From contig OX597818.1 in assembly GCA_951406725.2 (NCBI GenBank), forward strand, positions 16,802,001-16,866,000: DNA of 64,000 nucleotides, written 5' to 3'. Every line of letters begins with the position of its first letter. Position 1 is the stretch's first letter. A program made the position numbers and the translations under genes. Below the pieces are notes generated by a model. That model was not told the origin of the DNA, ran no database searches, and worked only from the letters and a program-made list of their open reading frames with translations. Of this stretch, positions 1-47,380 are shown piece after piece. The DNA comes from Octopus vulgaris (taxonomy: Eukaryota).

Positions 1-643
1 TTATTTCTTTAGAACAACAGAGAACCTCAGGAACCAGAGACTGTTTTCCTTTTCTTTTTTGTAGTTAAAGCCCTTTTTTTTATCAATATGAAATTATCAA
101 TATGTAAGTCCATTTGTCTAAATCTTCCACCCACCTACTTGTCACCCTTCTCAGTCAGTCTCTGGTTAAGTCTTAATTATGATGGTACAACAGAATCATC
201 AGTCTATGAAATATTCATAATTTTCTTTCCTAATATATGTCTGGCACTCAGAATAAGCCAGACTGTCTGTGAGGTGTGTGATAGGGTGGTGCTGACAGTG
301 GGGACAGTAGTAGCTGCATAGCTGGTGGTGGGTCTATTAAAATCAGTTATATTCATGGTAACTGTAGAGGGAAGATTGAATGATGAACTGTAGAAAACAT
401 ATATCTTAATTAGCTACATGGGAGAGGTAGGTTAGTGAGAGAAGAATCAAAATAAGAAAATGTTTTTATAAAAAAAGAAAAAGATTGGACCAGAACAGAG
501 AGGTAAAAATGATTTCACCAGCTAACTGCTTGCCAAACACATTGTAATTAAGTTCTTGTTATGAAGGCAGTGAATTGCATGGAATAGTAGACCACCAGAC
601 TATACTTATGTACTTATGTTAAGAATTCTCCATCAAGGTGGTT

Positions 644-5188: not shown

Positions 5189-5421
5189 GGCGAGCTGGCA
5201 GAAACGTTAGCACGCCGGGCGAAATACTTAGCGGTATTTCGTCTGCCGCTACGTTCTGAGTTCAAATTCCACCGAGGTCAACTTTGCCTTTTATCCTTTC
5301 AGGGTCGATTAAATAAGTACCAGTTATGCACTGGGATTGATATAATCGACTTAATCTGTTTGTCTGTCCTTGTTTTTCCTCTCTGTGATTAGCCCCTTGT
5401 GGGTAGTAAAGAAATAGGTAT
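5189..5421 (+). mobile_element. SINE family B (ggcgagctggcagaa...gagttcaaattcc...aataagtaccag)
   Basis: Box A/B-like head. Diverged relatives at ~708, 1096, 20914, 23197, 25880, 26031, 33533, 39350, 44495, 48555 (+) and ~45594-46010, 47830 (-). Confidence 0.85.
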
Positions 5422-5930
5422 TCTAGTACTATTTCTACCCCACCTTGTTTCACATTTATGTGCTTACTTTGGTATATATAATATTAAGATTGTCCTACCG
5501 TAACACATCCAAAGAATGCCTCCCAAAAATTCATTTCTCCAATCATACCTTCAAATCATGATATCTAAGTAAGTGAATGGACTGTAGGTATTATTACATA
5601 TTTCCATATATTATGGCATGTATTATACAACACTGACTAAATTGCATAATCTTGAATGAGATATGGAATGGAAATATCATCTGTTTACACAAACAATTGT
5701 CAATTTGACTTCTCCAGGTTTTATTTTAAGCCTACTGGACTTATCTTGGAATTGCGTAGAGCCCCCATGTATACCAGTCAAAGTCTTATGGATCTCCTTT
5801 TGATTTTGGGATACTACTCTGGCGAGGATCCTGTATAACGTGCTGAGGTGACAGCCAGATTTACGCTTATTCCTTCTGTCTGTCTGTCTGTTTATATATT
5901 AATCGAAGTGTACCATATTATATATTCATT

Positions 5931-19734: not shown

Positions 19735-19786
19735 GTCTTACAGCTGTTTCCAGGATATTTATTAATTATATGCCTTCATCAGAGAC
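19735..19786 (-). ncRNA. Minimal type I hammerhead ribozyme motif (Penelope-like-element type)
   Basis: Minus strand reads gtct CTGATGA aggcatat..atatcctg GAAA cagctg TA agac. Stem I gtct/agac, canonical core, palindromic stem III ACAGCTGT, GUA cleavage triplet. The base of stem II is irregular. Confidence 0.72.
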
Positions 19787-23464: not shown

Positions 23465-25348
23465 GTATACACTTTTTGGACCTATTTCCCAATATATCCC
23501 TTTTTAAATCTACAGTTGTCTTCCCCACCTCTGATACCCTTTTTATCTCTATCAGTTATGTCACTCACCATCTCTTCTTTTTATTTGCAATGGTGCTTGT
23601 GTAATTAAGGATGGTATTCAACCTGTCTAATCATCTAATCTCATCTCTCATCTAGGCAGTTACCATACCACCTGAGTACCACGGGATAGTATTGTTAAAC
23701 CTGCTCATTTTCAATTTTCCTACCCATCACTCTTCCTACCACTCTTTATATGTATCTGATGCACCCTAGTCATCAGTCTGTCTTCCTTCAGCCACTTGCT
23801 ATTGACAGCCATCACTCACTCTTACTATTGTCCACCTCTATTACTATTTGTCAGTTTTTCTCCCCATTTGCCATTCTTTTACACCAATCATTGTTTCTAC
23901 CAGCATACTCTTAATCCTTCCACCCACCCATTATGGTTCATTAGTCATCACCCTCTTTTCTACTCACCTTCTCAGTCATAGTGTTTTGAGTGAACAAATA
24001 CATCATAGAGTAGTAAGGATATGTTTGTTTTACAAGTTAAGAGATAATCTCTTTAGTGCTGGTGCGAAAATAAAACGAACTCGGTACACTCTGTGAAGTA
24101 ATTGCTGAATGAATGAGACTTGCCAAAGGTATGACAACCTTTCTTGCAGTAGTGATAGGAAGAGCATCCAACTTTAAAATCCAAACCAAAAATGAAATGG
24201 AGGAGTAACTTCAAATAAGAACTGATTCAAATCTGAACACCCATCCTACTCATCCCAGCATGGAAAGCTGACATAAAATGATGATGATGTTGATAGTTGA
24301 CATCTGTAACCCTTTAGTATTTAAAACAGCCATATCCATTCAAAATATTCCACCTGTTTTATGTTCTCTGGCATCTTACACCTAGCTTACTATGCCATTC
24401 TAAAAAATTAATAATCACATCATCAATATCTCAAATATGTGAGGTAATGCAGGATTAATTCAAAACAATGTGAATAAATAAGCATTATATTTGACAGAGT
24501 AATTTGAATGCTAAAGAGTTAAAGTTGCTCAAGACAGATTGTTATTCTTATATTTGTGAAATGAACTTCCATAGATCTTCTTCCTTGTTTGTAGATTTCA
24601 GATGGAGTAGAACCAGCAAACCAGCCCAAGTGCTTTGTTGTCAGCTGGCAGAATGCAATCTCCAGTTCTTTGAGAGTCAGAGATGCTGACAGCCTCTGTT
24701 GTGTGGGGAACATGGGAAGATCATAGCAGTCATCATAGGTAGTTAGTGGTCTGTGCAAAAGAGAATAGAATGCTAGCCTATTGGTTAGGATGTTGGATGC
24801 ATGGTCTTGTGGTTGTGGGGTTGACTCCTGAACTGGGCAAAGTACTTCATTTTATACTGGTTCAGTCAACTCAGCCGAAAATGAAAACCATCCACCTCTT
24901 CCTTTATACCAGATGTTTCAATGAGTCAAAGGTTGAAGGGCTGAGAGGATATTTTTATCTGCTTGCAACTACATAGGCATCTAAAACAATTGGTGAAAAC
25001 ATAGCACCTGCTACTAAGTCATACTTACAAGTGACAGGTTTTCTTTACATTCACGCATGCACACATGTACACACAAACACACTTATATTAGCACAAACAA
25101 AAAATAATTATTATTTTCTTTTTTTGGTGAAGAACTGAGCTCATACAACTTTATACTTCCCATTAACATCTACTTACTTTATATAATCAGTTATAACCCC
25201 AATATTATTTTGCTGCGAGACTAAATATGATTAATGCATAATTAGCATTTAAACCTTTTATATACTAAATAGTAATCAAAATGTACAGTGTTATATTCAG
25301 TTTTAATCCTGTTAACTTATACATTACTATTTCCATTTACTTTTCCAG

Positions 25349-25651
25349 ATTCTACAGACAGCAATACATTGTTTGCGGAAGCAAATGGTATGATTATGAT
25401 ACCATGCAGTGAAACGTCTGAAAAGGTTGCAGCGGTCAAGTGGTACATAAATGACCAGCTCCTCATCGGCCATGACCTCAGTCCAAAACCCAGTGCAGTG
25501 AATGGCGATAAAGCGGGAGTGTCAGTGGGTGAAGACTATAGTCTTACACTGACGGACCTTAGTTTGAATGACACTGGAAATTACACTTGTAGGCTTGTCA
25601 GTACCAATGGGGATTCCATCAGCAATGTAACCCGTGAAGTCGTCATTCAAG
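25349..25651 (+). CDS. Internal exon encoding one immunoglobulin (V-set-like) domain of an IgSF protein
   Basis: Pyrimidine tract and acceptor ttttccAG (25347-48), donor GTGAGT (25652), 303 nt, phase 1-1 as is typical for Ig exons. Translation DSTDSNTLFAEANGMIMIPC...VKWY...YSLTLTDLSLNDTGNYTCRLV...EVVIQG has the B-strand Cys, C-strand Trp and DxGxYxC motif, plus N-glycosylation sequons NDT, NYT, NVT. Confidence 0.92.
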
Positions 25652-28600
25652 GTGAGTCTGTATTTCTTTTGGTCTTTCTCACCATCTGTCATTGTCATCA
25701 AAGAGAAGACAGAAGACAGCAGTGTCATCATTTTGTTGTCATCATCTTTTGTGGGCTTTGTCTTTCATCTATCTCTCTGGGGGTCAGTAAAATAAGTACC
25801 AGTCAAATACAAGGATCAATGTAATCAACTACCTCCTCCCCTCAAAATAGCTATCCTTGGTTGAGGTGGCTTGGGATTGCTTTGCAGAATTCCGCCAAGG
25901 TTGACTTTGCCTAGCATCCTTTCAGGGTTGATAAAATAAGTACCACTTGAGTACTGGGGTTGATGTAGTCAATTAGCCCTTTCCTCAAAAGTTTAAGGCT
26001 TGTACCTATAGCAGAATGGATTATTATTAAGGTGACAAGCTAGCTGAAGCGCTTGGGCACCAAACAAAATGCTTAGCGGCATTTTGTCTGTCATTACATT
26101 CTGAGTTCAAATTACACTGTGGTCAACTTTTTCACTATCAGATCTAATACATTGATTTTATTGCAGTACTAGATTATTCAGTGAAATAACACCTACTTCA
26201 TTTTATTCAAGATGGATTTTATAACAATATTTACCTTACCTGTTATTCTAACATTTTGTCTTGAGTTGGGAGATCATTGCGATCAGTTCTATGTGTTTGG
26301 CCTTCGATCCATTCTGATAGAATTATTGTCTTCAGATTGTCAAGTAAAGCTGACTGTGTATCCACCTGCACTATAATCAAGCTGATTTACAATAATATCA
26401 GTGGCTATTTCCTTGACTACCTCAGTTTCAGTATTTCTTGTACTAGGTTTCACTTCTGCAGTGGAGGGATGTTTTGCATCATCTGAACATGACCATTGGC
26501 CTGAACATATACTTGAATCTGTTGGATATCCATGTCAGTTAACAGCTTATTTTTCATTATGATGTTCCTGTGAACATTAGCTAACATATTGCTATTTATG
26601 TTTGATCTATTGGTAAGGTTTTTTTTCTTCTGCCAGGTTAAGTATGTTCGCTCTGTATTAGATCTACCCAATAGAAAGTACATTGCAGTGTAATAGGTCT
26701 TTAGAATGACCTTGTATTCTTTGTCTTTTGTCTTTTCAGGGTTCATAAATTGAGTACCAGTGAAGCACTGGGTTCAATTGAATAAACTTTGCTCTCCACT
26801 CAAAATTACTGGTCTTGTGCCAAAATTAGGAAAGAATATTATTAGACAAATAAAACCAGGACTGAATACATTTCTCCGCTTTTAAGCAAAGTGCAGATAT
26901 AAATAACAAGCATTTTGAATGGCATTCTTTCTTTCAGTATTCTCTTACTATGGAGATTTAAAACACTGTTGTGTGCCATTTCCACCACTGCCACCATCAC
27001 CATGAAAGTAGAAGTGCCACATTTTAATCAACTAATATATTTTCCCTAAAATATTTATCCAGTGTATTAATCTGATCAACCATTATTACCTAGTATCAAA
27101 TAATCTTCTCTATGTGAGCTCCTGATGTAGCACTCTGCCCTTTTATTTAAAATTGTAATTTTAGTAGTTAATTTTTCCCATTCAGTATGTTCTCACTGCT
27201 GTTTCATTATTTCCCAGCAGACTGCTGAAACATGTTTATTGATTTATTTTACAATCTATAAATTAATTAGTTAATTAATTGATGATTAAACAATGATTGA
27301 TCAAAGCTTGTATTTGGCCAGTAGAGCTATGTTTGATGTACACTTCCTTTCCTCATTCTGTTCACTTAACAGGATGACATGTCTGACCCAATATTAAAGA
27401 AAAGGTCAGAAAATGAAAACAAAAGTATTTTTTTCTCAACTCAGCCATGTGGTTAAGAAGTTCAATTCACAACCATCTGGTTCCAGTTCAATACCACTGC
27501 ACCGTACAGTGGTCAAGTGTCTTCTACTATAGCCTTAGAGCACAAAATATCTTCTGGGTGAAACCATATGGAAGCACAAACATACACATGCATGTGTGTG
27601 TACGTCTGCATATGTGTATATACATACATGTTTCTTTGTCTTGAAGGTCATTATCAGAGATGTTAAATAATGGCCAAGATACACACTATAATTTTGCTGG
27701 TTGAACCAAATCTTGCTAACTACTATGAGCACGAGTGGTCATTATCCAATATAGGTGCTTTCACTCCATTCAGCTTTGTACCTTTTGCATCAACAGTAGC
27801 TTAGCTCTCACTCTCTAATATTCTTTAAATATGTGAGCTGTTCCAGACAAATTAGTTTTTTGAGATATTCTGTTCTATTGTATTTAATTATTTATCCAAC
27901 TTATTTGATACCATTCCTAGAAACTTTATTACTATTGGTATTGCCAAGAACAGAATTACAGTAGCACACTAGACCATGATTTTGATATTTCTCAACTGTT
28001 TCTTTGTTCTATTCTACCAAGTTGATTATATCCAGACATTGCCATGCCAGTGGCTTTTACACACCCATGCCCCTTCACTACTGCCTGAATATATGGGCTC
28101 TCTCTCTCAGGAAATCACAGAATATTTAGTAGTTCTTGAACTCAAACTAGAGGGCCAGTATTCATTACCCATTGCTTCAACAGTCTGTTCTTTCTAGTTA
28201 ACAATTCCCAGTATGCATCATCGGTCTTCCTTTGTATTTCTTTTTAACTACATTAATGTTTTCTCTCATCAAACGTGCTACCCTATGACCCTTACTGCCA
28301 CACATGCTACTTAATGTATGGGATCTGATCTAGTTTGATACATTATAATGACAACAATAGTAAAAATAATGATGATAATAAATGAACAAAAAAGAATCAT
28401 ATTAAAAGAATTATTATTATTATTAATAATAATATTATTAATATTGTATTTGTGTGTTCTATTATATTTCAATTATCTTTGCATCCTGCCAAAGAGATTC
28501 CCAAACCACAACAATAAATTCTATAACACGAATTAGATTAGCAATACTCAATGTTTAACAGACATCAGTTAGAAAAGACATTTCAATATTGTTTTTGCAC

Positions 28601-30434: not shown

Positions 30435-32856
30435 CAGCACTGCTTAAACTATGAGATACGACACCATTTGGGGTTGTGAAGTGAAATACTGAGGTCACAA
30501 AAATTAAATTCAAACTTCAGTTTGTTATTTCACAAATGCACAATATTTAATGTGATGTGCCATGCAAGCGCTGCAGTAATAAAATGCAAATGCAGTGCTG
30601 TTGCAACTAGTGCAGTGACAACGTGTGTATTTTCAGTGTAGTTGGTTGATTGTGTTCATCTTAATAAGTAGATAAATAACAATACATTTTACTGTTTTAT
30701 TCAATTGAGGTTGATATTTATTTAAAGAATTTCGTAGTTATTTTATGAAATGTTATTTTATTTATATTTCAAAATAAAAATATTTTACTCATGGATAAAT
30801 GGTTGAACTTGAGTAACAAAAGTAATGATGCAGATGGCAATGCTACAAAGTCTGTTCAAGCAGAACCTAGTAATCAGAGAGAGGCATCTGAGATGTGGAA
30901 AAAGAAAATATGATGAGTCAGTTCTCCAATTTGGCTTCACTTTTAATAATAGCAATGGTATGGAACAACCTCCTTGTTTAATTTGCAATAACGTTTTGGC
31001 TGTGGGGAGTATGAAACCCTCAAAATTAAAAAGGCATCTTGAATTCAAACATCAATAAAGCAAAGATATATTTTGAAAGACTGTTTATATCTTCAAATAT
31101 AGAAAAGCAAAATTTTGAGAAATTTTTGGCTATAAATGAAAAATATTCATTAGTATCATACGAAGTTTCATATCCAATTGCAAAAAATAAAAAGCCATAC
31201 ACCATTGGGAAAGAACTTTTATTACCTGCTACTATGAAGATGGTAGAAATATTTCACGGAAGTAAATATGGTGATGAAATTCGGAAAATTCCTTTGTTGA
31301 ACAACATTGTTGCCAATAGAATTACTGAAATTAGCAACAACCATCTATTTCTATGCTTAAAGAAACACAAAATTTGCTATTCAGTTGGACAAAACAACTG
31401 ATATTTTAAAAATGGCACAATTGTTAGTACACATCAGATACATTTATAAAGAAAATGCCAATGAAGAATAGTTATTTTGACATCATTTGGAAGAACATAC
31501 ATGAGGGAAAGACATATATAGTAAAGTTGATGGATTTTTTAAAACTGTAGGTTTGGAATGGAAAAATTGTATTGGAGTATGCACAGATGGTGCAAAAGCG
31601 ATGATGAGTAAAAATATTGGTTTTAAATTCTTTAAGGCTGCTGGTAGTAATCATGTAACTTTTATACATTGCATGAGCCATTGAGAGGCTCTTGAAGCAA
31701 AAAAATTAACACTGGAATTAAACGATATGCTTCAGGATGTTATCAAAATTATAAACTTTATTCAAAGCCGTATCCTTAACAGCCATTTATTTTTAAATCT
31801 CTGTATAGACATGAACTCAGAATACAAAAACTTATTATTACACTCAGAAGTAAAGTGGTTGTCAAGAGGGTGAAGTTTATACAGATTATTGCTGTTAAAA
31901 GACGAAATTATTATATTTTTAACTGAACAAAAATCTGGTCTTGCTGCTCTTTTTCAAAATGACTTATGACTTTCAAATTTATGCCATTTGTCAGATATTT
32001 TTGAGAAACTAAGCGATCTCAACTTTTCTCTTCAAAAATAGAAAAACAATGTATTTACTTCGAATGATAAAACATTTGGAATAATAGGGTGAAAAGTGAT
32101 TCATTCGAAATGTTTCTGGTTATTGAAGATTTTATCATTGAAAAAAATAATTGCAAAAATTAAATACCACTTAAATACCCTAGAAACACAGTTTTGCAAA
32201 TACTTCATATCGAATTTTAATTTCAAAAAGTTATCTTGGATTCAGAAACCATTTTCAATTGACATTGATGATATTAATGATCTGCTGTATAAAGCCCAAG
32301 AGGAGTTCATTGAGCTATCAAGTGATTCAAACTTGAAACTTGATTTTACAAACAAGTCTTTGACTGAATTCTGGATTGGAGCTAAAGGTGAATTTCCCAC
32401 TATTTCTGAAATGGCATTACATGTTCTTTTGTCATTTAGCACCACATACCTATGTGAAACGACATTTTCAGCTTTAACCCTTATTAGAACCAAATATCAT
32501 TCAATAATGAAAAATGTAGATGTAACGTCCGCTTTCCATGCTAGCATGGGTTGGACGATTTGACTGAGGACTGGAGGAACAGATGGCTGCACCAGGCTCC
32601 AATCTTAACTCTGTCAGATCAAGATTGGAGCCTGGTGCAGCCATCTGGTTCGCCAGGTCCTCAGTCAAATCATCCAACCCATGCTAGCATGGAAAGTGGA
32701 CGTTAAATGATAATGATGTATGTATATTGTTCAGCAAAAAAATAAATGATTTATGTATATATTTGTATACTTTATTTCTTATTTAATACCTGGGGTCACA
32801 AAAAAATCTCATGATGAAAAATGGGGTTATGAATGAAAAAAGTTTAAGAAGCACTG
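30435..32856 (+). mobile_element. hAT transposon of the Buster/Charlie group (ZBED8/SCAND3-like transposase), decayed
   Basis: 8-bp TSD ATGTAGAG on both sides with central TA. TIRs cagcactgcttaaact / agtttaagaagcactg. Fragments: BED finger (PPCLICNNVLA...MKPSKLKRHLEFKH), KKPYTIGKELLLPA, CTDGA, HSEVKWLSRG, and the dimerisation motif FSTTYLCETTFSAL. Confidence 0.95.
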
Positions 32857-36300: not shown

Positions 36301-36637
36301 AACAATTGCAGCGTGGAAGGTGTTTGTAAGCCATTTAAGAAACACACAAAAGCCGTTCGATTCATTTCAACATTTAAGTTTAATTTGTCAAAATATTTTC
36401 GTCACTAAAATCCGCGACCTGTTCACTGACAAAAATCCGTGCTGCACCTCAGATTTTTGTCAGTGAACAGGTCGCGGATTTTAGCGACGAAAATATTTTG
36501 ACAAATTAAACTTAAATGTTGAAGTGAATCGAACGGCTTTTGTGTGTTTCTTAAATGGCTTACAAACACCTTCCACACTGCAATTGTTTTCGTTTCAGCA
36601 CACGATCTCAGATCAAATCACTTGCTACGCGAGTACA

Positions 36638-36682: not shown

Positions 36683-38250
36683 GCGTTTGTGTTTGTCCCC
36701 CTAGCATTGCTTGACAGCCGATGCTGGTGTGTTTATGTCCCCGTTACTTAGCGGTTCGGCAAAAGAGACCGATAAAATAAGTACTGGGCTTACAAAAGAA
36801 TAAGTTCCGGGATCGAGTTGCTCGATTAAAGGCGGTGCTCCAGCATGGCCAAAGTCAAATGACTGAAACAAGTAAATAAAAAGCGTATATGAATATTCAT
36901 ACCCCAAATCATTAATCCATTTACTTTTAGTTACTTTACATATATCTTTACACACACAGTAACACATGTCTATATGCTTCATTTTGTAAGTGTGTGTGTG
37001 TGAAGTACTTTGCCATAACCCCACCTTATTGCTGACGCCTTCCATTTAAATAGGAATCACCCTCTTAAGTCAGAGGCAATATCAGTATCACAAGGAAGCA
37101 GGATGATCCAACTGCAAGAGGGGGTCTAAGGAAAAAGAGGAAGTGTGATATCCAGTTACTGTGACACCTATAGCAGTTCCTTTAGACTTGAGAGGAAGTG
37201 CCAGTGCCCTGTACCCTAATTAACAGGATAAATGTCAATGAATGAATGAAGTTGGGGTTGTTTAGCCCCAGGTCAAACGTGATTGAATAAGACCTATGTT
37301 AAGACATGTTCTAGTCACGATCACTTTGTCTTCTTAAGGATACCGAAGACGACATTATGCAGCGTGTCTTTTCCTTTTTAAGACTAGAATGTGATTTGAA
37401 CAAGATTTGGGTGCTATTTTTAGCAGGTTTGGTGACCTCATATAAAAACTACCTCGTTGGTTCATCTATAACGCGTTTCTCTTACATTGGTGAGTATGTG
37501 TATTCACACACACTTGTACAAACCCACACATGTATCTGCTATATTCCTCCACCACTATCCTCCTCCCACAGCCGGATTATGCTGGCTCCCTGTGATGCTG
37601 ATGTCACATCTTAGACAAACAATGAAGTAATGGTAGGAAGAGTCTGTGGTGGAGGCGTGAGACCAGATAAGGAATCTTCTAGATACCACTGGATAGTTTC
37701 TATCTTGCAGATTAACATATTTCCTCTGAGAAATATATATATATATATATCTGTTATTTATTTTTTCTTTCTAAAATGTTTATTTCGAAAATATTCCATT
37801 CAAGCTTTTACATGCACGTGCAAGAACACACACACACACACACACACAAACACACATATACACACACATTACATTACATTATGAAACTAGTTGTTATTGT
37901 TGCTAATCGTCAGGTGAACCTTGATCTGTTGATCCTTATGATAAAAGGCATCCTGCCAGTGACCAAGTGCATTAAATGTGTCCTTCCATTTTTGGGATAA
38001 AGAAGTATTAGTTGATGGAGGTTTGGCTGGTATTTCTAGCAGGTTGGGTGATCACATAGTCCTTCCCACCCTCTCATTGACTCATTGTATATGTAGTTGA
38101 ATTATTAGGTACACACACAGTCATCATCACCAGTTTGTCTGTCATGTGGTAATGGCATTGGTTGGGCAGGTCTGCACCAGCTCAGTATTTTGCAGCATTT
38201 CACCACATGGTGTTGTCATTCATCGTCTTCTTTAGGAGGTATGGCATCTT

Positions 38251-38500
38251 GATTACATCGACCCCAGTGCGTAACTGGTACTTAATTTATCGACCCTGAA
38301 AGGATGAAAGGCAAAGTCGACCTCGGTGGAATTTGTGAGTTCAAATTCCGCCAAGGTCGACCTTGCCTTTCATCCTTTCAGGGTCGATGAATTAAGTACC
38401 AGTTACGCACTGGGGTCGATGTAATCGACTTAATACCTATGTCTGTCCTTGTTTGTCCCCTCTGTGTTTAGCCCCTTGTGGGTAGTAAAGAAATAGGTAT
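38251..38500 (+). mobile_element. SINE family B insertion with an inverted duplication replacing its 5' end
   Basis: TSD aggtatggcatctt(ga) at 38237 and 38495. 85-bp arms at 38251-38335 and 38342-38426. Confidence 0.85.
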
Positions 38501-39281: not shown

Positions 39282-41099
39282 ACATACACATAAAGCATAG
39301 TTATTAATTGTTCACACACACACACTGTGTTTGCTTATCATTATTATTATTGCAAATTATATAGTATGTTGACAAATTGCTTAGGAGAATTTCTTCCAGT
39401 TCTTTACATTCAGAGTTCTAATCCTGCTAATGTCAGCTTTGCCCTCTATTTTCCATCTACATATACAATGAGTCAATGAGTGAGTGGGAAGGACTATGTG
39501 ATCACCCAACCTGCTAGAAATACCAGCCAAACCTCCATCAACTAATACTTCTTTATCCTAAAGATGGAGTTAATAAAATAAGTACTAGCCAAATACTGGG
39601 GTCAGTGTGAACAAATTGCTGGTCCTGTGCCATAACTTGAAACATTTATGTAACTCTGCATCAAACTTCATTGACTGCTAATCATCGTACATACTTTCTT
39701 GCTGTGGTCACCATGTCACTTTTTCAGGCATAGTATATACACAGTTACATTATCTATTGTTTCCCATAGGGCTATTTTGAAATACTTTTGGCTGCTCTTT
39801 CTAGGAAATTGAACGTACAAATAGCAGCCCCCTTGGCAACAATTAAGCCTAATTTTCAGCAACATTAACATCCTCATCATACACACATACATTAAAATTT
39901 CTATATTTTGTCATTACTATTCAGATGTTGAGATAATTTCTCATAGCTAAGAGGTTATGTGTATCTTGTGTGTTTATGTGTGTGTGTACAGTGTCTGTAC
40001 ATCTAGGTGGGGTAGCTGCTGGTTGGCAAGAAATATTTGGAAAGAGATTTACCATGAGCTCAGACTTCTGTTACATAGAGGTGGATGTGGAGGAGAGATT
40101 GCTGCAAGTAAGAAAATATTAAAGAACTCGGGTAGATGTTTGGCATATAAATTAGATTGTGTGTATGCATATGATATATGATTTATGTTAGCTATATCAA
40201 CTATGCTTCGTCTGCTGCATACCCCACACCTTAAAAATTACAAAACGAGATGAAATCAAATGCTAAATAGATCACCTACCATCCATCCATCCATCAATCA
40301 GCCAGCCAGACACTCTCAGTTATCTTGGCAATTCAAATGTATAGGTGTGTGTGTAAGATTGATTACTGAAGCCATAACTAAACTTTTGTCCTGTCTGTGT
40401 TTTTTTTTTTAAAGATGAATTTTTTGGTAGTTCATTGATTTTTTTAACGCATTGCCTTGTGGCCATGTTGGAGCTTCACATTTAAAGGTTTCATGAATTG
40501 CATTAGTTTTAATCAATTGTATTGTCACCACTACTAATTTCAATCTGAAAGCAATTTTTTAAACCCTTTGGTACTCGGATTACTTTGGAAATGTAATACT
40601 AACCAATTCACATTGTTTTGAATTACTCATGCGTTATCTTGTAGCTTCAATATTTCAATGATGTGATTGTTTATTTTTTGGATGACATTGCAGGGTAGGT
40701 GCAAGAGGCCAGATCTGGACAGTAGGATATTTGGACCAGATATGGCCAGTTTAAATGCTAATGGATTAATCTATCAGATTGCTAAATCATGTTTTTGACA
40801 TAAAGAAACCCAACTTGTTACATTGATTTACACCGGTAAAACATAGTCCCAAACACAGATACATGGTTATACAGACACACATGTGTGCGCACACACACAC
40901 ACACACACAATAAAGTATTCCTCACTCTTTCTATCTCGAGAAGACTATTTGTCAAGCAGAGGGCAACAGTCAGACATTTTACCCATAGTGCCATATAGAG
41001 AATTGAACCTGCCCTCTCATGGTTTCAAAATGATCTTGTTAACCATATGGCTATGTTTGTTTACAGCACTAAATTATCCAATGTCCTCTGATGTTTCAG

Positions 41100-44255: not shown

Positions 44256-45043
44256 TTATTTATTCATTGGCATAAAGACGAAGCTACAAGCTTGAAAAGA
44301 AGAGTACAGTCAATTTAATTGCATTCAGGCTTTTATTTTTGTGGAGTTCATAAAATAAGTGCAATTCTTATTTTATGGACTCTACAAAAACACAAGATTT
44401 AGATTTTGAACTTAGATGCTCAACTCTTTTTCTAATTTACTACAAAATAAATAAATAAATGACTGCTGCTGCTGCAACAACAGTAACAACAAAGGTGGCA
44501 AGCTGGCAGAATTGTTAGTACACTGGGTAAAATGTCTTGCAACATTTTGTCCATCTTTTGAAATTCTGCTGAGGTCAACTTTGCCGTTCATTCTTTCAGA
44601 GTTGATGAATAAGTACCAGTTAATCACTGGAGTTGATGTAATCAAGTAGCTCCCTTCCCTCCAAAATTTCTGGCTGATTATTAAATTTTTTTTTTTTTTA
44701 ATTATTTCTTTTATTGGACATAATGACCCAAAACGTTGAGGACATTATCAAAGGATGAAATACAATACAAAAACAGGTGGGGTTTACCTCAATCAAAAGG
44801 AGACACCAGAGGAGTGGCATATGGTGGTTGTTATATTAGGTGTGCTGCCAGACTCAATGCCACCAAATTTTTGAACATTTCTGATGAGGAGAGGCTTTGT
44901 AGTAAGAAGCTTGCTTCCCAACAACATAGTTCCAGGTTCAGTCCGACTGCATGGCACTTTCGGCAAGTGTCTTCTACTATAGCCTTGACCCAACCGAGGC
45001 CTTGTGAGTGGATTTGGTAAACTGAAACTGAAAGAATCCCATC

Positions 45044-45076
<33 letters not shown>

Positions 45077-45341
45077 CCGGAGTAAACACATAAATGTGAA
45101 ACAAGGTGGAAAAAAGAGTACTCAAATACCAGTGGTAGAGTAATATGCTTTATTTAAAGCAGCAGAAAATTCAACAAAACCTGTTACTCTGAGTTTCCCG
45201 TTGCCGTTCATCGGACAGTTTTTGCTAGAATGGAACTGATATGTCCATATCGGTTCCATTCTAGCAAAAACTGTCCGATGAACGGCAACGGGAATCTCAG
45301 AGTAACAGGTTTTGTTGAATTTTCTGCTGCTTTAAATAAAG
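45077..45341. mobile_element. Penelope-like inverted pseudo-LTR fragment (96-bp-arm hairpin plus tail) inside the (TA)n tract of a SINE
   Basis: Arms 45148-45243 and 45246-45341. One-sided ~70-nt tail, hammerhead-like motif followed by AATAAA. The host SINE halves continue on both sides. Confidence 0.7.
45181..45218 (-). ncRNA. Minimal hammerhead-like motif (U4C core, 2-bp stem II with GCAA loop)
   Basis: Minus strand reads ctgt CCGATGA a-cg-gcaa-cg-g GAAA ctcagag TA acag. Quasi-palindromic stem III ACTCAGAGT and GUA site. The mirror copy on + has GAAA mutated to GAAT. Confidence 0.5.
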
Positions 45342-47380
45342 AATATATATATATGTTTGTGTGTCCATGTTTGTCCCACCACCATTGCTTGACAACTGAT
45401 GCTGGTGTGTTTACATTCTCGTAACTTAGTAGTTCAGCAAATGAAGCTGATAGAATAAGTATTAGGCTCACAAAGAATGTCCTGGGGTTGATTTATTCGA
45501 CTAAAGGTGATGCTCCAGCATGGCTACAGTCAAATGACTGAAACAAATAAAAATAAATTAATGAATAAGGTTAATATATATATATATAATGAATTTGCCA
45601 TTTTCTGTGGGTGTGCCATAGTCAATTGCATGAACTCCAGTGCTCAACTGGTTCTTTATCAACCTCAGAAAGATGAAACTCCTAGTGGAGTTTGAACACT
45701 GAACATAAAAATGGACAAAATGCCACTTTGGATTTTGCTCGGCATGCTAACAATTTTGCCAGCTTGTTCCTTAAATAATAACAACGACAATAATGATGAT
45801 GGTGATTTCTTACATGCGAACAGATTCTCTAATTTGGGGAAAGGAATAGTTGAATGTATCGACCCTTGTACTTAACTAGTAAGTACTTTATTTGATCGAC
45901 CTTGGAAGAATGAAAGGTAAAGTCAGTTTCAGTTGGATTTAAATTCAGAAGTTAAAGGACCATAACTTAGATATCTCAAGGCATTTTGTCTGATGCACTC
46001 CACTGCCTTAATAATAATAAAAGGCTATTGTAACTGAGTATTTCTATGCCAGTAAACGATCTAAGCATATAAGGAAAAAAAAAACCTCAGTAGTAGTGTC
46101 TAATGAGAGGTCTGTAAAATCCATCATTAGTTAAGAAGGCTGTAGTTCTCTAATGGCCTTTGTAGTTAATGGAGGGAATCTGTTAGGAACGTCAAAACAG
46201 GAACAGATCAAAGATAAGGCACAGTGTGTACTCCTCATCTTTGGCCTGTGGAATCTTAACATCTTAACCAAATACCATTCTAATCAAACATCATATCTGG
46301 TGTATCCTGGCCTACATTATCTAATATTTCTTTTTATTACTTTCTTTCTTTTGTAAGATGATAGGGTGTGACTTGAGGTTTATTAGCCTACTGTTTCTAG
46401 TAATTCATGTGATCAATGTACAGGCCCCTTCATTGGCTTGCAGGACGGCCTTGACTTGAATGCTTTTAAGGCGAGGTGTGCTTGACTAGTGTTAAGTCAA
46501 GTGTAAATAACAATCAGAGCAAAATTATTTCTGAAACATCCTAACTAATTTTACATAGGTGTGTGTGTGTGTGTGTGTGTGTGGCTCGTCCAACCCCTCC
46601 TCTCAGCATGTTGTTAAACTCTTTTGCTACCGACCCATTGTAGACCACCCCTAGTTTGGTGATTGATAAATCCAAATTTGAATGATGTTAGTGTTCAAAC
46701 TAAAATCTCCCATCAAAAAATTCATATGAGAATCTTTTGTTCTTATCTAACTTGAACACCAAACGCCATCTTAATAACTGTTTCTAATATAGGCACAAGG
46801 CTAGAAATTTCTGAGTGCAGACTAATCAATGAAATTTTCCCCAGTATTTGACTGATACTTTGTCATCAAATCCTAGAAGGATGAAAGGTAAAGTTCTCAG
46901 CAGGATTTGAACTCAAGAATGGGAAGAGCCAAAACAAATGCTGCTGCAAAGCATTTCTTCAATGCTCTCATGATTCTGCCACTCCACACTCCCCTATCCG
47001 TCACTAACAATTGAGTATGCTTTGGTGACATTTATCCTTTCAATACTAATTGTTGTTGGTGACTTTTAGTTATGAACAGGCATAAACTCCTACTCAGCTT
47101 TCCTGCTCAATATTCCAGTAGAATATCAAAGATGTCACTGTAGGAAGTTAGGAGGCTTCACACCAGCGTTCAGCTAATACTAATTCTGAGCTGATTAGAT
47201 TGGTTCTATGTGAATTAGAGCACCTTGCTTAAAGGCACAATGTATTGCCAAGTCAAGGAATTGTACCTACAGACTTATGATTGTAAATCCAATAACTTTA
47301 CCACTAGGTCCCTGCCCCATAGCACCATCTTAATAATGAAGAAATCATTTCTACCAGATTCACACATTTTTCTTTTATTA

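What the first reader, a model, noticed from the sequence alone, without database searches (positions are those of the whole stretch)
45077..45341. Second, unrelated hairpin plus hammerhead element inserted in the (TA)n tract of the same SINE family
Seen: 96-bp arms around a 2-nt centre, a one-sided 70-nt tail, and the motif ctgt-CCGATGA-acggcaacgg-GAAA-ctcagag-TA-acag followed by AATAAA. The sequence is unrelated to the 36.3-kb element but has the same architecture and the same kind of target. The core is a U4C variant with a 2-bp GCAA-capped stem II and no canonical G10.1-C11.1 pair. Inference: an ultra-minimal ribozyme variant in a Penelope-type inverted pseudo-LTR. Activity is uncertain.
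Basis: partly seen in the sequence, partly recalled or inferred. Interest (0 to 1): 0.7.

Follow-up and report, generated by a model that had tools for sequence, protein, structure and literature searches.

The report
Hydra-type Penelope end, variant hammerhead
This is a 269-base fold-back insertion from an abundant repeat family, likely the truncated end of a Penelope-like retrotransposon, whose copies share an unusually small hammerhead-ribozyme motif that is predicted to cut RNA only weakly or with help and has not been tested.

Summary
The arms pair at 94 of 96 positions. The intact motif is on the minus strand of the left arm; the right arm has GAAU. The insert sits in the SINE's (TA)n tract.

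Contigs from four runs (13,564 laid) show a multi-copy family. No variant at C4 reaches 3%, so CCGAUGA is the family state, not decay. The common variants fall only in unpaired positions.

The closest kin are Hydra-clade Penelope-like elements. They share stems I and III, the GUA site, the (TA)n target, head-to-head truncated pairs, two end points about 65 nt apart, and a bulged tail hairpin. Two related metagenome loci end a Hydra-type endonuclease frame 98 and 108 nt upstream of the ribozyme. No ORF was linked to this family itself.

Lack of G10.1-C11.1 is ordinary in Hydra elements (18 of 25). U4C (0 of 25 families, 0 of 138 matches) and the 2-bp stem II are the real deviations, each with precedent in other hammerheads. 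This copy is likely inert, locked in its own ~100-bp hairpin. Catalysis is untested. Verdict: a new variant of a known kind.

The parts
44887..45045 (+). 5' half of the host SINE (bounds approximate)
   Evidence: 70-85% identical to other window copies
45042..45076 (.). (TA)n target tract, left part
   Evidence: sequence; uninterrupted tracts in other SINE copies
45077..45143 (-). One-sided tail, 66-67 nt, between the short and the long end of the family
   Evidence: (TA)n loose ends before 45080 (X3, X6, X15) and before 45143 (all four runs); second fragment at 5417-5468
45120..45141 (-). Bulged tail hairpin (ACUC-UACC, 3-nt loop, GGUA-UUU-GAGU), same pattern as in Hydra-clade tails; candidate protein-recognition site (inferred)
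   Evidence: MFE fold; family variants at loop 45133 and bulge 45124; top hit of a model built without window sequence, E 0.13 in 64 kb; covariation in relatives
45149..45154 (-). AATAAA, 31 nt after the predicted cleavage site; role unknown
   Evidence: sequence; no such hexamer at the like place in the 8 metagenome relatives aligned
45144..45245 (-). Left arm: 5'-truncated sense copy that runs on into the tail; includes the central TC
45174..45225 (-). Type I minimal hammerhead motif: stem I 4 bp + mismatch + 5-6 bp; core CCGAUGA 45214-45208; stem-loop II 45207-45198; GAAA 45197-45194; palindromic stem III 45194-45186; predicted cleavage after A17 (45185)
45246..45345 (+). Right arm: inverted 5'-truncated copy ending at the short end; its hammerhead copy (45264-45315) has A15.1 changed to U at 45295
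45343..45354 (.). (TA)n target tract, right part; overlaps the ATAT end of the arm
   Evidence: sequence
45355..45560 (+). 3' half of the host SINE
5417..5468 (-). Second, 52-nt fragment of the same tail (85% identical), ending in TATATA and joined to another SINE's end over a 5-nt overlap

Best explanation
The insert is a head-to-head pair of 5'-truncated copies of a multi-copy repeat end that carries a U4C, 2-3-bp-stem-II hammerhead motif, and it is likely the pseudo-LTR terminus of a Hydra-clade Penelope-like retrotransposon. Shown: the fold-back, the two end points abutting (TA)n, the family-wide C4, and the likeness to Hydra ends. Inferred mechanism: the element's RT-endonuclease nicked both strands of the SINE's (TA)n tract and primed reverse transcription twice, once from the long end (+108 from the cleavage site) and once from the short end (+41/42). 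Both cDNAs stopped just upstream of hammerhead stem I and were joined head to head, leaving the tail on one side. The bulged tail hairpin lies between the two starts and would be the protein-recognition signal. The hammerhead cannot form stem III alone and would act as a dimer through its palindromic ACUC-A-GAGU. In tandem full-length transcripts it is predicted to cleave slowly or only with protein (my odds that the family motif cleaves at all: about 45%). This particular copy is likely inert: a read-through RNA would fold into the ~100-bp hairpin, and the second copy has a broken core.
For: FAMILY: 7254/4215/1848/247 contigs of X3/X6/X15/X17 lie on 189 nt; no variant at or above 3% at any 5' core position or in GAAA; (TA)n loose ends at two points; opposite-strand joints at several other points. 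VARIANTS: in DNA-type runs the sites reaching 3% are 45180 (stem I mismatch), 45190 (loop III), 45198 (base before G12; G/A/U), 45203 (N of GNRA), 45133 and 45124 (tail loop and bulge) and 45116 (outside both folds). 6 of 6 sites inside the two folds lie in 14 free positions of 74, P 1.6e-5; for the hammerhead alone, 4 of 4 in 8 of 52, P 2.6e-4. HYDRA LIKENESS: Hydra-2_aMil has the same stem I, the same stem III bar the loop base, and GUA; 5 of 25 Hydra families have ACTC-N-GAGT; 26 of 27 listed families prefer (TA)n (Craig 2021 supplement). RELATIVES: the pattern scan gave 138 matches in 120 loci; 18 loci hold head-to-head pairs 3-48 nt apart, 11 of them with the tail hairpin on one side and none on both. 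In the main family 51 of 74 copies end at +32..39 and 17 of 74 at +99..101. L001 and L023 end a Hydra-type endonuclease frame 108 and 98 nt upstream of the ribozyme; L001 is 87% identical to a 716-aa protein with RT motifs. TAIL HAIRPIN: also visible in Hydra-2_Amil, Hydra-2_Ajap and at the 5' end of Hydra-1_Ajap (read by eye). MECHANISM PRECEDENT: in Poseidon the tail is the stretch between two RT starts, both target strands are cut and extended, and the hammerhead is protein-assisted and dispensable for insertion in vitro (PMC11167929).
Against: No ORF was linked to this family: no genome is held, the tail 23-mer had 0 metagenome matches, and the 40-codon frame through the ribozyme found no real relative. 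The metagenome pattern was designed from this motif, so ribozyme likeness there is selected; only the tail, ends and ORF link are independent. The tail-model hit is weak (E 0.13; next hit 0.3) and the hairpin's z-score is only -1.7. The family is young and mostly invariant: 0 of 7 variable sites in 57 constrained positions of 169 has P 0.05 only. Three further sites reach 3-4% in X17 alone and lie in paired or core positions (45178, 45186, 45205); counting them, P for the hammerhead rises to 0.007-0.03. C4 allows a rival helix that wins in this copy (p 0.67 against 0.09 for stem II); stem II dominates only in the U variant (0.95), and the hammerhead dimer is 5-9 kcal/mol above the MFE dimer. 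Pfam did not name the RT or endonuclease of P0007; that assignment rests on likeness by eye to Hydra-2_Amil.
Confidence: 0.82

Rival explanations
1. Same origin, but the hammerhead is a dead relic. U4C and the shortened stem II arose in one master element and spread by founder effect, because cleavage is not needed for insertion.
For: Hammerhead mutants do not affect insertion by the Anolis PLE in vitro. U4C lowers activity considerably in vitro. Depth shows no step at the cleavage site, though contigs cannot show RNA ends. A rival helix through C4 wins in the G variant.
Against: Subfamily differences avoid core and stems and keep a GNRA loop and the stem III palindrome. A U4C viroid ribozyme still supports infectivity (Perreault 2011 citing Ambros and Flores).
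Confidence: 0.4
2. A non-autonomous, retrozyme- or SINE-like short element that borrows a Hydra-type protein; no full-length coding parent with this end survives.
For: Depth falls steeply toward the 5' side within and just upstream of the ribozyme in all four runs. Animal retrozymes are proposed to be non-autonomous PLE derivatives (bioRxiv 10.64898/2026.07.22.740005).
Against: Loose ends show the family continuing upstream of 45245. The copy here is inverted, not tandem. Hydra relatives with ORFs show the same excess of short fold-back copies.
Confidence: 0.2
3. A MITE-like or microsatellite-induced palindrome, or an assembly fold-back, whose hammerhead likeness is chance.
For: No Rfam hammerhead match. 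Three departures from the textbook core.
Against: 0.03 descriptor hits expected per window. 16 of 17 nt over GAAA, stem III and stem I are shared with Hydra-2_aMil. The arms differ, the tail is one-sided, and fold-back points vary between copies.
Confidence: 0.03
4. A PLE end of another clade (Neptune, Naiad or Penelope/Poseidon) that converged on the same ribozyme arms.
For: Those clades also give inverted copies and tails, and Naiads prefer (TA)n. The motif is short.
Against: The shared tail hairpin and the ~65-nt tail match the Hydra-type loci. Naiads lack canonical hammerheads.
Confidence: 0.1

Closest known systems
Hydra-clade PLE ends, esp. Hydra-2_Amil and Hydra-2_Ajap (Craig et al. 2021, PMC8557442, Files S1/S2)
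   Same: Stem I CUGU/ACAG, stem III ACUC-N-GAGU, GUA site, (TA)n target, mismatch-flanked stem II in most families, 5'-truncated inverted copy (noted for Penelope-13_HM), bulged tail hairpin.
   Different: All 25 tabulated families have U4 and a stem II of at least 3 bp; this one has C4 and 2 bp (3 in the U variant). Linker and tail sequences are otherwise unrelated. It is not Hydra-1_Obim, whose ribozyme differs throughout. No ORF is linked here.
Minimal PLE hammerheads (Cervera and de la Pena 2014, PMC4209133)
   Same: Type I, short helix I, palindromic helix III needing dimers, extra base after A9, low expected activity.
   Different: Their consensus has CUGANGA, a long helix II and a highly conserved G10.1-C11.1; this motif has none of the three.
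Poseidon PAc of Anolis (Frangieh et al. 2024, PMC11167929)
   Same: Tail between two RT starts, AT-rich targets, hammerhead upstream of a stem-loop near the start sites.
   Different: Tail described as 30-40 bp against 66-67 here; different clade; PAc is assayed, this is not.
Natural hammerhead core variants (Perreault et al. 2011, PMC3088659)
   Same: U4C, stems II of 1-2 bp and a mismatch at 10.1-11.1 are each reported.
   Different: They are reported separately, and U4C only as a viroid variant. The authors suggest tertiary contacts offset such changes; no such contact was identified here.

Membership tests
Penelope-like element (EN+) | Linked ORF with PLE RT and GIY-YIG endonuclease | tested here: inconclusive
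   None in the window's frames of 100 aa or more or via the 40-codon frame. No genome. Present only in related loci L001 and L023.
Penelope-like element (EN+) | 5'-truncated inverted copy next to the terminal repeat | tested here: met
   (opposite-strand joints at other points); described as typical.
Penelope-like element (EN+) | One-sided tail, two alternative ends | tested here: met
   (TA)n loose ends before 45080 and 45143; 66-67 nt, longer than the 30-40 bp quoted.
Penelope-like element (EN+) | Type I hammerhead in the terminal repeat | tested here: met
   Motif present as a variant and family-wide.
Hydra clade | RT phylogeny and Hydra-type C-terminal endonuclease | not testable with these tools
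   No ORF of this family was recovered.
Hydra clade | (TA)n insertion preference | tested here: met
   26 of 27 listed Hydra families.
Hydra clade | Canonical CUGANGA core | tested here: not met
   C4 here; U4 in 25 of 25 families and 138 of 138 metagenome matches.
Hammerhead ribozyme | Three-helix junction with C3-G8, G5, A6, A9, G12, A13, A14, A15.1-U16.1 and H17 | tested here: met
   Left arm, minus strand; stem III only in a dimer (duplex -7.4 kcal/mol). Not met in the right arm.
Hammerhead ribozyme | U4 and the G10.1-C11.1 pair | tested here: not met
   C4; A10.1 opposite G (19-37%), A (23-67%) or U (15-46%) across the four runs.
Hammerhead ribozyme | Self-cleavage | not testable with these tools
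   Needs an assay; contigs cannot show RNA ends.
Non-LTR retrozyme | Tandem head-to-tail units, each with a hammerhead | tested here: not met
   Inverted pair here; one 'goes back 71' joint in a single X3 contig only.

The most novel reading that the evidence does not exclude
An abundant animal PLE family has fixed and kept under selection a working hammerhead that combines U4C, a 2-bp GNRA-capped stem II and no 10.1-11.1 pair, rescued by dimerisation or by its own RT protein. In addition, Hydra-clade tails across phyla share an undescribed bulged hairpin that positions the two reverse-transcription starts.
Probability: 0.3. Interest if true: 0.62.

Novelty: new variant of a known kind. Interest (0 to 1): 0.42.

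Why it matters
What PLE hammerheads do is still open: they are nearly universal, weak in vitro, and dispensable for insertion in the one reconstituted system. A family that fixed a core change known to lower activity, while its subfamilies still vary only at free positions, is a natural test of whether catalysis or just shape is selected. Three natural variants (G, A, U before G12) are ready to compare. Standard CUGANGA descriptors miss such motifs, so PLE hammerheads may be undercounted. The shared tail hairpin gives a concrete candidate for the signal that sets the two RT starts in Hydra elements. The locus itself is an ordinary dead transposon fragment.

Tried and rejected
Whole-genome consensus: no genome is held, so contigs of four runs were used instead. 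Tail 23-mer in metagenomes: 0 matches. U4C pattern in viral contigs: 2 matches, neither with flanking stem I, taken as chance. Hydra protein P0007 in viral contigs: no relative. The 40-codon frame through the ribozyme: no hit among longer proteins; two spurious repeat proteins; a subfamily with indels breaks the frame, so it was rejected as coding. Rfam: only miRNA-like hairpin matches far below gathering score. Pfam on the L001 frame and four full-length homologues: no RT or GIY-YIG call. Organism: the Ig-like exon search found nothing; 'octopus-like' is my recall from the SINE and comes from no call. No RNA holder is on record (RNA labels are guesses), so expression is not shown. Earlier-findings look-ups returned nothing. 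Literature: short motifs of this element were not found in the full-text library (one irrelevant hit on a SINE motif, nothing relevant for CCGAUGA), in the Craig 2021 supplement, in two of three Cervera 2014 supplements (file 1 not searched), or in the Bonar 2026 supplement (which holds no sequences). Lunse 2017 and Ambros and Flores 1998 are not held; their content was not seen and could already include such variants. Repbase, Dfam and the octopus repeat library could not be searched, so the family may already be catalogued. AATAAA as a conserved poly(A) signal was not supported by the relatives. A cleavage-site run-off signature was not seen, but contigs are blind to it.

Full report
OBSERVATION. 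The insert spans 45077-45345 inside the internal (TA)n tract of a SINE; 10 other copies of that SINE in the window have their halves 0-81 nt apart. Arms 45148-45243 and 45246-45341 pair at 94 of 96 positions and extend to 101 bp with one more mismatch. The quoted hammerhead motif is intact on the minus strand of the left arm: core CCGAUGA 45214-45208, GAAA 45197-45194, GUA ending at 45185. The right-arm copy has U in place of A15.1. A relaxed descriptor, written after seeing the motif, finds 4 sites in the window against 0.03 expected from 200 shuffles. Rfam has no match at gathering score and no hammerhead family at E up to 10. The 36.3-kb element is unrelated in sequence, and only the 3' half of the SINE lies beside it.

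IS THE VARIANT ANCESTRAL? No genome is held. Twenty of 24 listed runs, from 10 studies and four organism labels, hold 85-100% of the 13 sampled words; two may be the source. I laid 4 of these on 45077-45265 at 80% likeness: 7254, 4215, 1848 and 247 contigs. This shows a multi-copy family. Summed depth is not a copy number, but the peak is about 3x10^4 times the junction depth, or about 10^3 after dividing by 31 for overlapping contigs. No change at C3, C4, G5, A6, G8, A9 or GAAA reaches the 3% listing threshold in any run, so CCGAUGA is the family state.

Seven sites reach 3% in a DNA-type run. Four lie in the ribozyme: the stem I mismatch (45180, 6-50%), loop III (45190, 3-6%), the base before G12 (45198; G, A or U) and the N of the GNRA loop (45203, 6-17%). 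Two lie in the loop and bulge of a tail hairpin (45133, 45124) and one outside both folds (45116). All six inside the folds are in free positions (14 of 74; P 1.6e-5). The hammerhead fold was proposed before these data; I drew the tail fold after seeing them. Against this: the family is young and mostly invariant (0 of 7 sites in 57 constrained positions of 169, P 0.05), and three paired or core sites reach 3-4% in X17 alone, which weakens the hammerhead-only P from 2.6e-4 to 0.007-0.03. The motif is not more invariant than its neighbours; the evidence is the placement of the changes.

ARCHITECTURE OF THE FAMILY. Loose ends show (TA)n abutting two points, before 45080 and before 45143, i.e. 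about +108 and +41/42 from the predicted cleavage site. Opposite-strand joints occur at several other positions, and there is a recurrent fold-back at 45228, just upstream of stem I (10 records in X6, 4 in X17). Depth declines faster on the 5' side than at the 3' edge, as expected for 5' truncation, though edge effects contribute. A 52-nt tail fragment also lies at 5417-5468.

WHAT IT IS RELATED TO. I saw passages and supplement tables of Craig et al. 2021 (PMC8557442). It describes PLE insertions with an inverted 5'-truncated copy and a one-sided tail. Its File S2 lists 25 Hydra-clade hammerheads; by my count all 25 have U4, 7 have G10.1-C11.1, 14 have U.U, 1 has U.C and 3 have G.U there, and the shortest stem II is 3 bp. 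Five have stem III ACTC-N-GAGT, and Hydra-2_aMil shares stem I, stem III (bar the loop base) and GUA with this motif. 26 of 27 listed Hydra families prefer (TA)n.

All 138 matches have U4. The pattern was designed from this motif, so only the unselected features count. 18 of 120 loci hold head-to-head pairs 3-48 nt apart, 11 with the tail hairpin on one side and none on both. In the main family 51 of 74 copies end at +32..39 and 17 of 74 at +99..101, a tail of about 65 nt. L001 and L023 end an endonuclease-like frame 108 and 98 nt upstream. L001's frame is 87% identical to a 716-aa protein with RT motifs that resembles Hydra-2_Amil by eye; Pfam does not name these domains.

THE TAIL HAIRPIN. 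30 of 117 matches with enough downstream sequence carry a bulged hairpin 39-51 nt after the cleavage site. The same expression hits the window once, at 45141, +43. In 9 selected relatives all 72 cells pair and 2 of 8 pairs change on both sides (2 of 500 shuffles as high; related sequences inflate this). A covariance model built from those 9, without window sequence, ranks 45112-45147 first in 64 kb, weakly (16.4 bits, E 0.13; next 0.3). The pattern is also readable in Hydra-2_Amil, Hydra-2_Ajap and at the 5' end of Hydra-1_Ajap, upstream of its ORF. One search for such a description returned only Craig 2021 and Frangieh 2024 as relevant listings; the passages I read do not describe it for Hydra.

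HOW IT LIKELY WORKS. I read parts 1-2 of 4 of Frangieh et al. 2024 (PMC11167929). For a Poseidon element they show that both target strands are cut and extended at AT-rich DNA, that RT starts at two internal sites whose interval is the tail, that the hammerhead cleaves only with protein, and that it is not needed for insertion. By analogy (inferred), a Hydra-type protein nicked both strands of the (TA)n tract and primed at the long and at the short end. Both cDNAs stopped just upstream of stem I and were joined head to head.

The ribozyme needs a partner for stem III (duplex -7.4 kcal/mol). This is as for other PLE hammerheads, which cleave weakly as dimers (Cervera and de la Pena 2014, PMC4209133, parts 1-2 of 4 read). 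At this locus the two copies lie on opposite strands, one is broken, and a read-through RNA folds at -170 to -176 kcal/mol, so the copy is likely inert. In silico, C4 permits a rival helix that wins in the G variant found here (0.67 against 0.09), while stem II dominates in the U variant (0.95); the hammerhead dimer lies 5-9 kcal/mol above the MFE dimer. These energies ignore tertiary contacts.

NOVELTY. Perreault et al. 2011 (PMC3088659; section 8 and passages) report stems II of two and even one base pair, a U.U start of stem II, and a viroid U4C variant that is weak in vitro but viable. Each departure therefore has precedent, and the missing G10.1-C11.1 pair is normal for Hydra elements. 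What I did not find in print is their combination fixed in a PLE family. Lunse 2017, Ambros and Flores 1998, one Cervera supplement file, Repbase and Dfam were not seen and may bear on this. The host is not identified by any search; I recall the SINE as octopus-like. If so, Penelope-like elements are already known to fill 6.83% of the O. vulgaris genome in 190 families (PMC13282606; part 1 and supplement rows), and this family may be among them. I also saw part 1 of 5 of bioRxiv 10.64898/2026.07.22.740005 and passages of PMC6765202, PMC6155905 and PMC10085705.

VERDICT. It works like, and is likely a member of, the Hydra-clade PLE ends, with ORF linkage untested for this family and the canonical-core test not met. 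New variant of a known kind; interest 0.42.

Noticed in passing
window 45169, 45178, 45186 (+ letters): A>G at 3.1-4.2% (8-18 contigs) in the RNA-guessed run X17 against 0.1% or less in three other runs, each with a 5' A or U neighbour. Resembles A-to-I editing of fold-back RNA, but X17 has another organism label than those runs, so alleles or subfamilies are not excluded.
   Followed up: partly
window 36301-36635: The 36.3-kb element has a different core variant, GUGAACA (G3-C8 covariation), with a 5-bp stem II and a palindromic stem III in both arms. Only the 3' SINE half flanks it.
   Followed up: partly
window 19739-19782 (-): Third descriptor hit with a canonical CUGAUGA...GAAA, palindromic CAGCUG and UA, but a weak AT-rich stem II and no fold-back. 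Possibly chance or an old relic.
   Followed up: partly
window 45225-45245 (-): A pyrimidine run plus AG, with a branch-point-like UUGAC upstream, ends exactly at the 5' side of stem I, as the intron end does in D. virilis Penelope. Fold-backs recur at this CTAG. May be coincidence.
   Followed up: no
window 45198-45207 (-): The whole stem-loop II (U variant) is identical to the 10-nt loop 2 of Penelope-2_NV in the Craig 2021 table. It could be the surviving tip of a longer stem II, or convergence on a stable GNRA hairpin.
   Followed up: no
window 38251-38417: Another SINE family also shows a head-to-head inverted partial copy (85 bp, 91%).
   Followed up: no
window 37985-38099 and 39454-39568: 115-nt inverted pair, 96% complementary, 1354 nt apart; looks like a recent terminal-inverted-repeat element.
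   Followed up: no
window 25348-25653 (+): Ig-like exon within a 182-codon frame; no homologue at E 1e-8 among longer proteins.
   Followed up: partly
window 31030-32563 (+): Two frames that look like fragments of a decayed DNA transposase (label recalled, not tested).
   Followed up: no
L066:14-53, L088, L089: Hydra-type hammerheads with U.U at the base of a 3-bp GAAA-capped stem II and loop III A: the nearest structural step to the motif here.
   Followed up: partly
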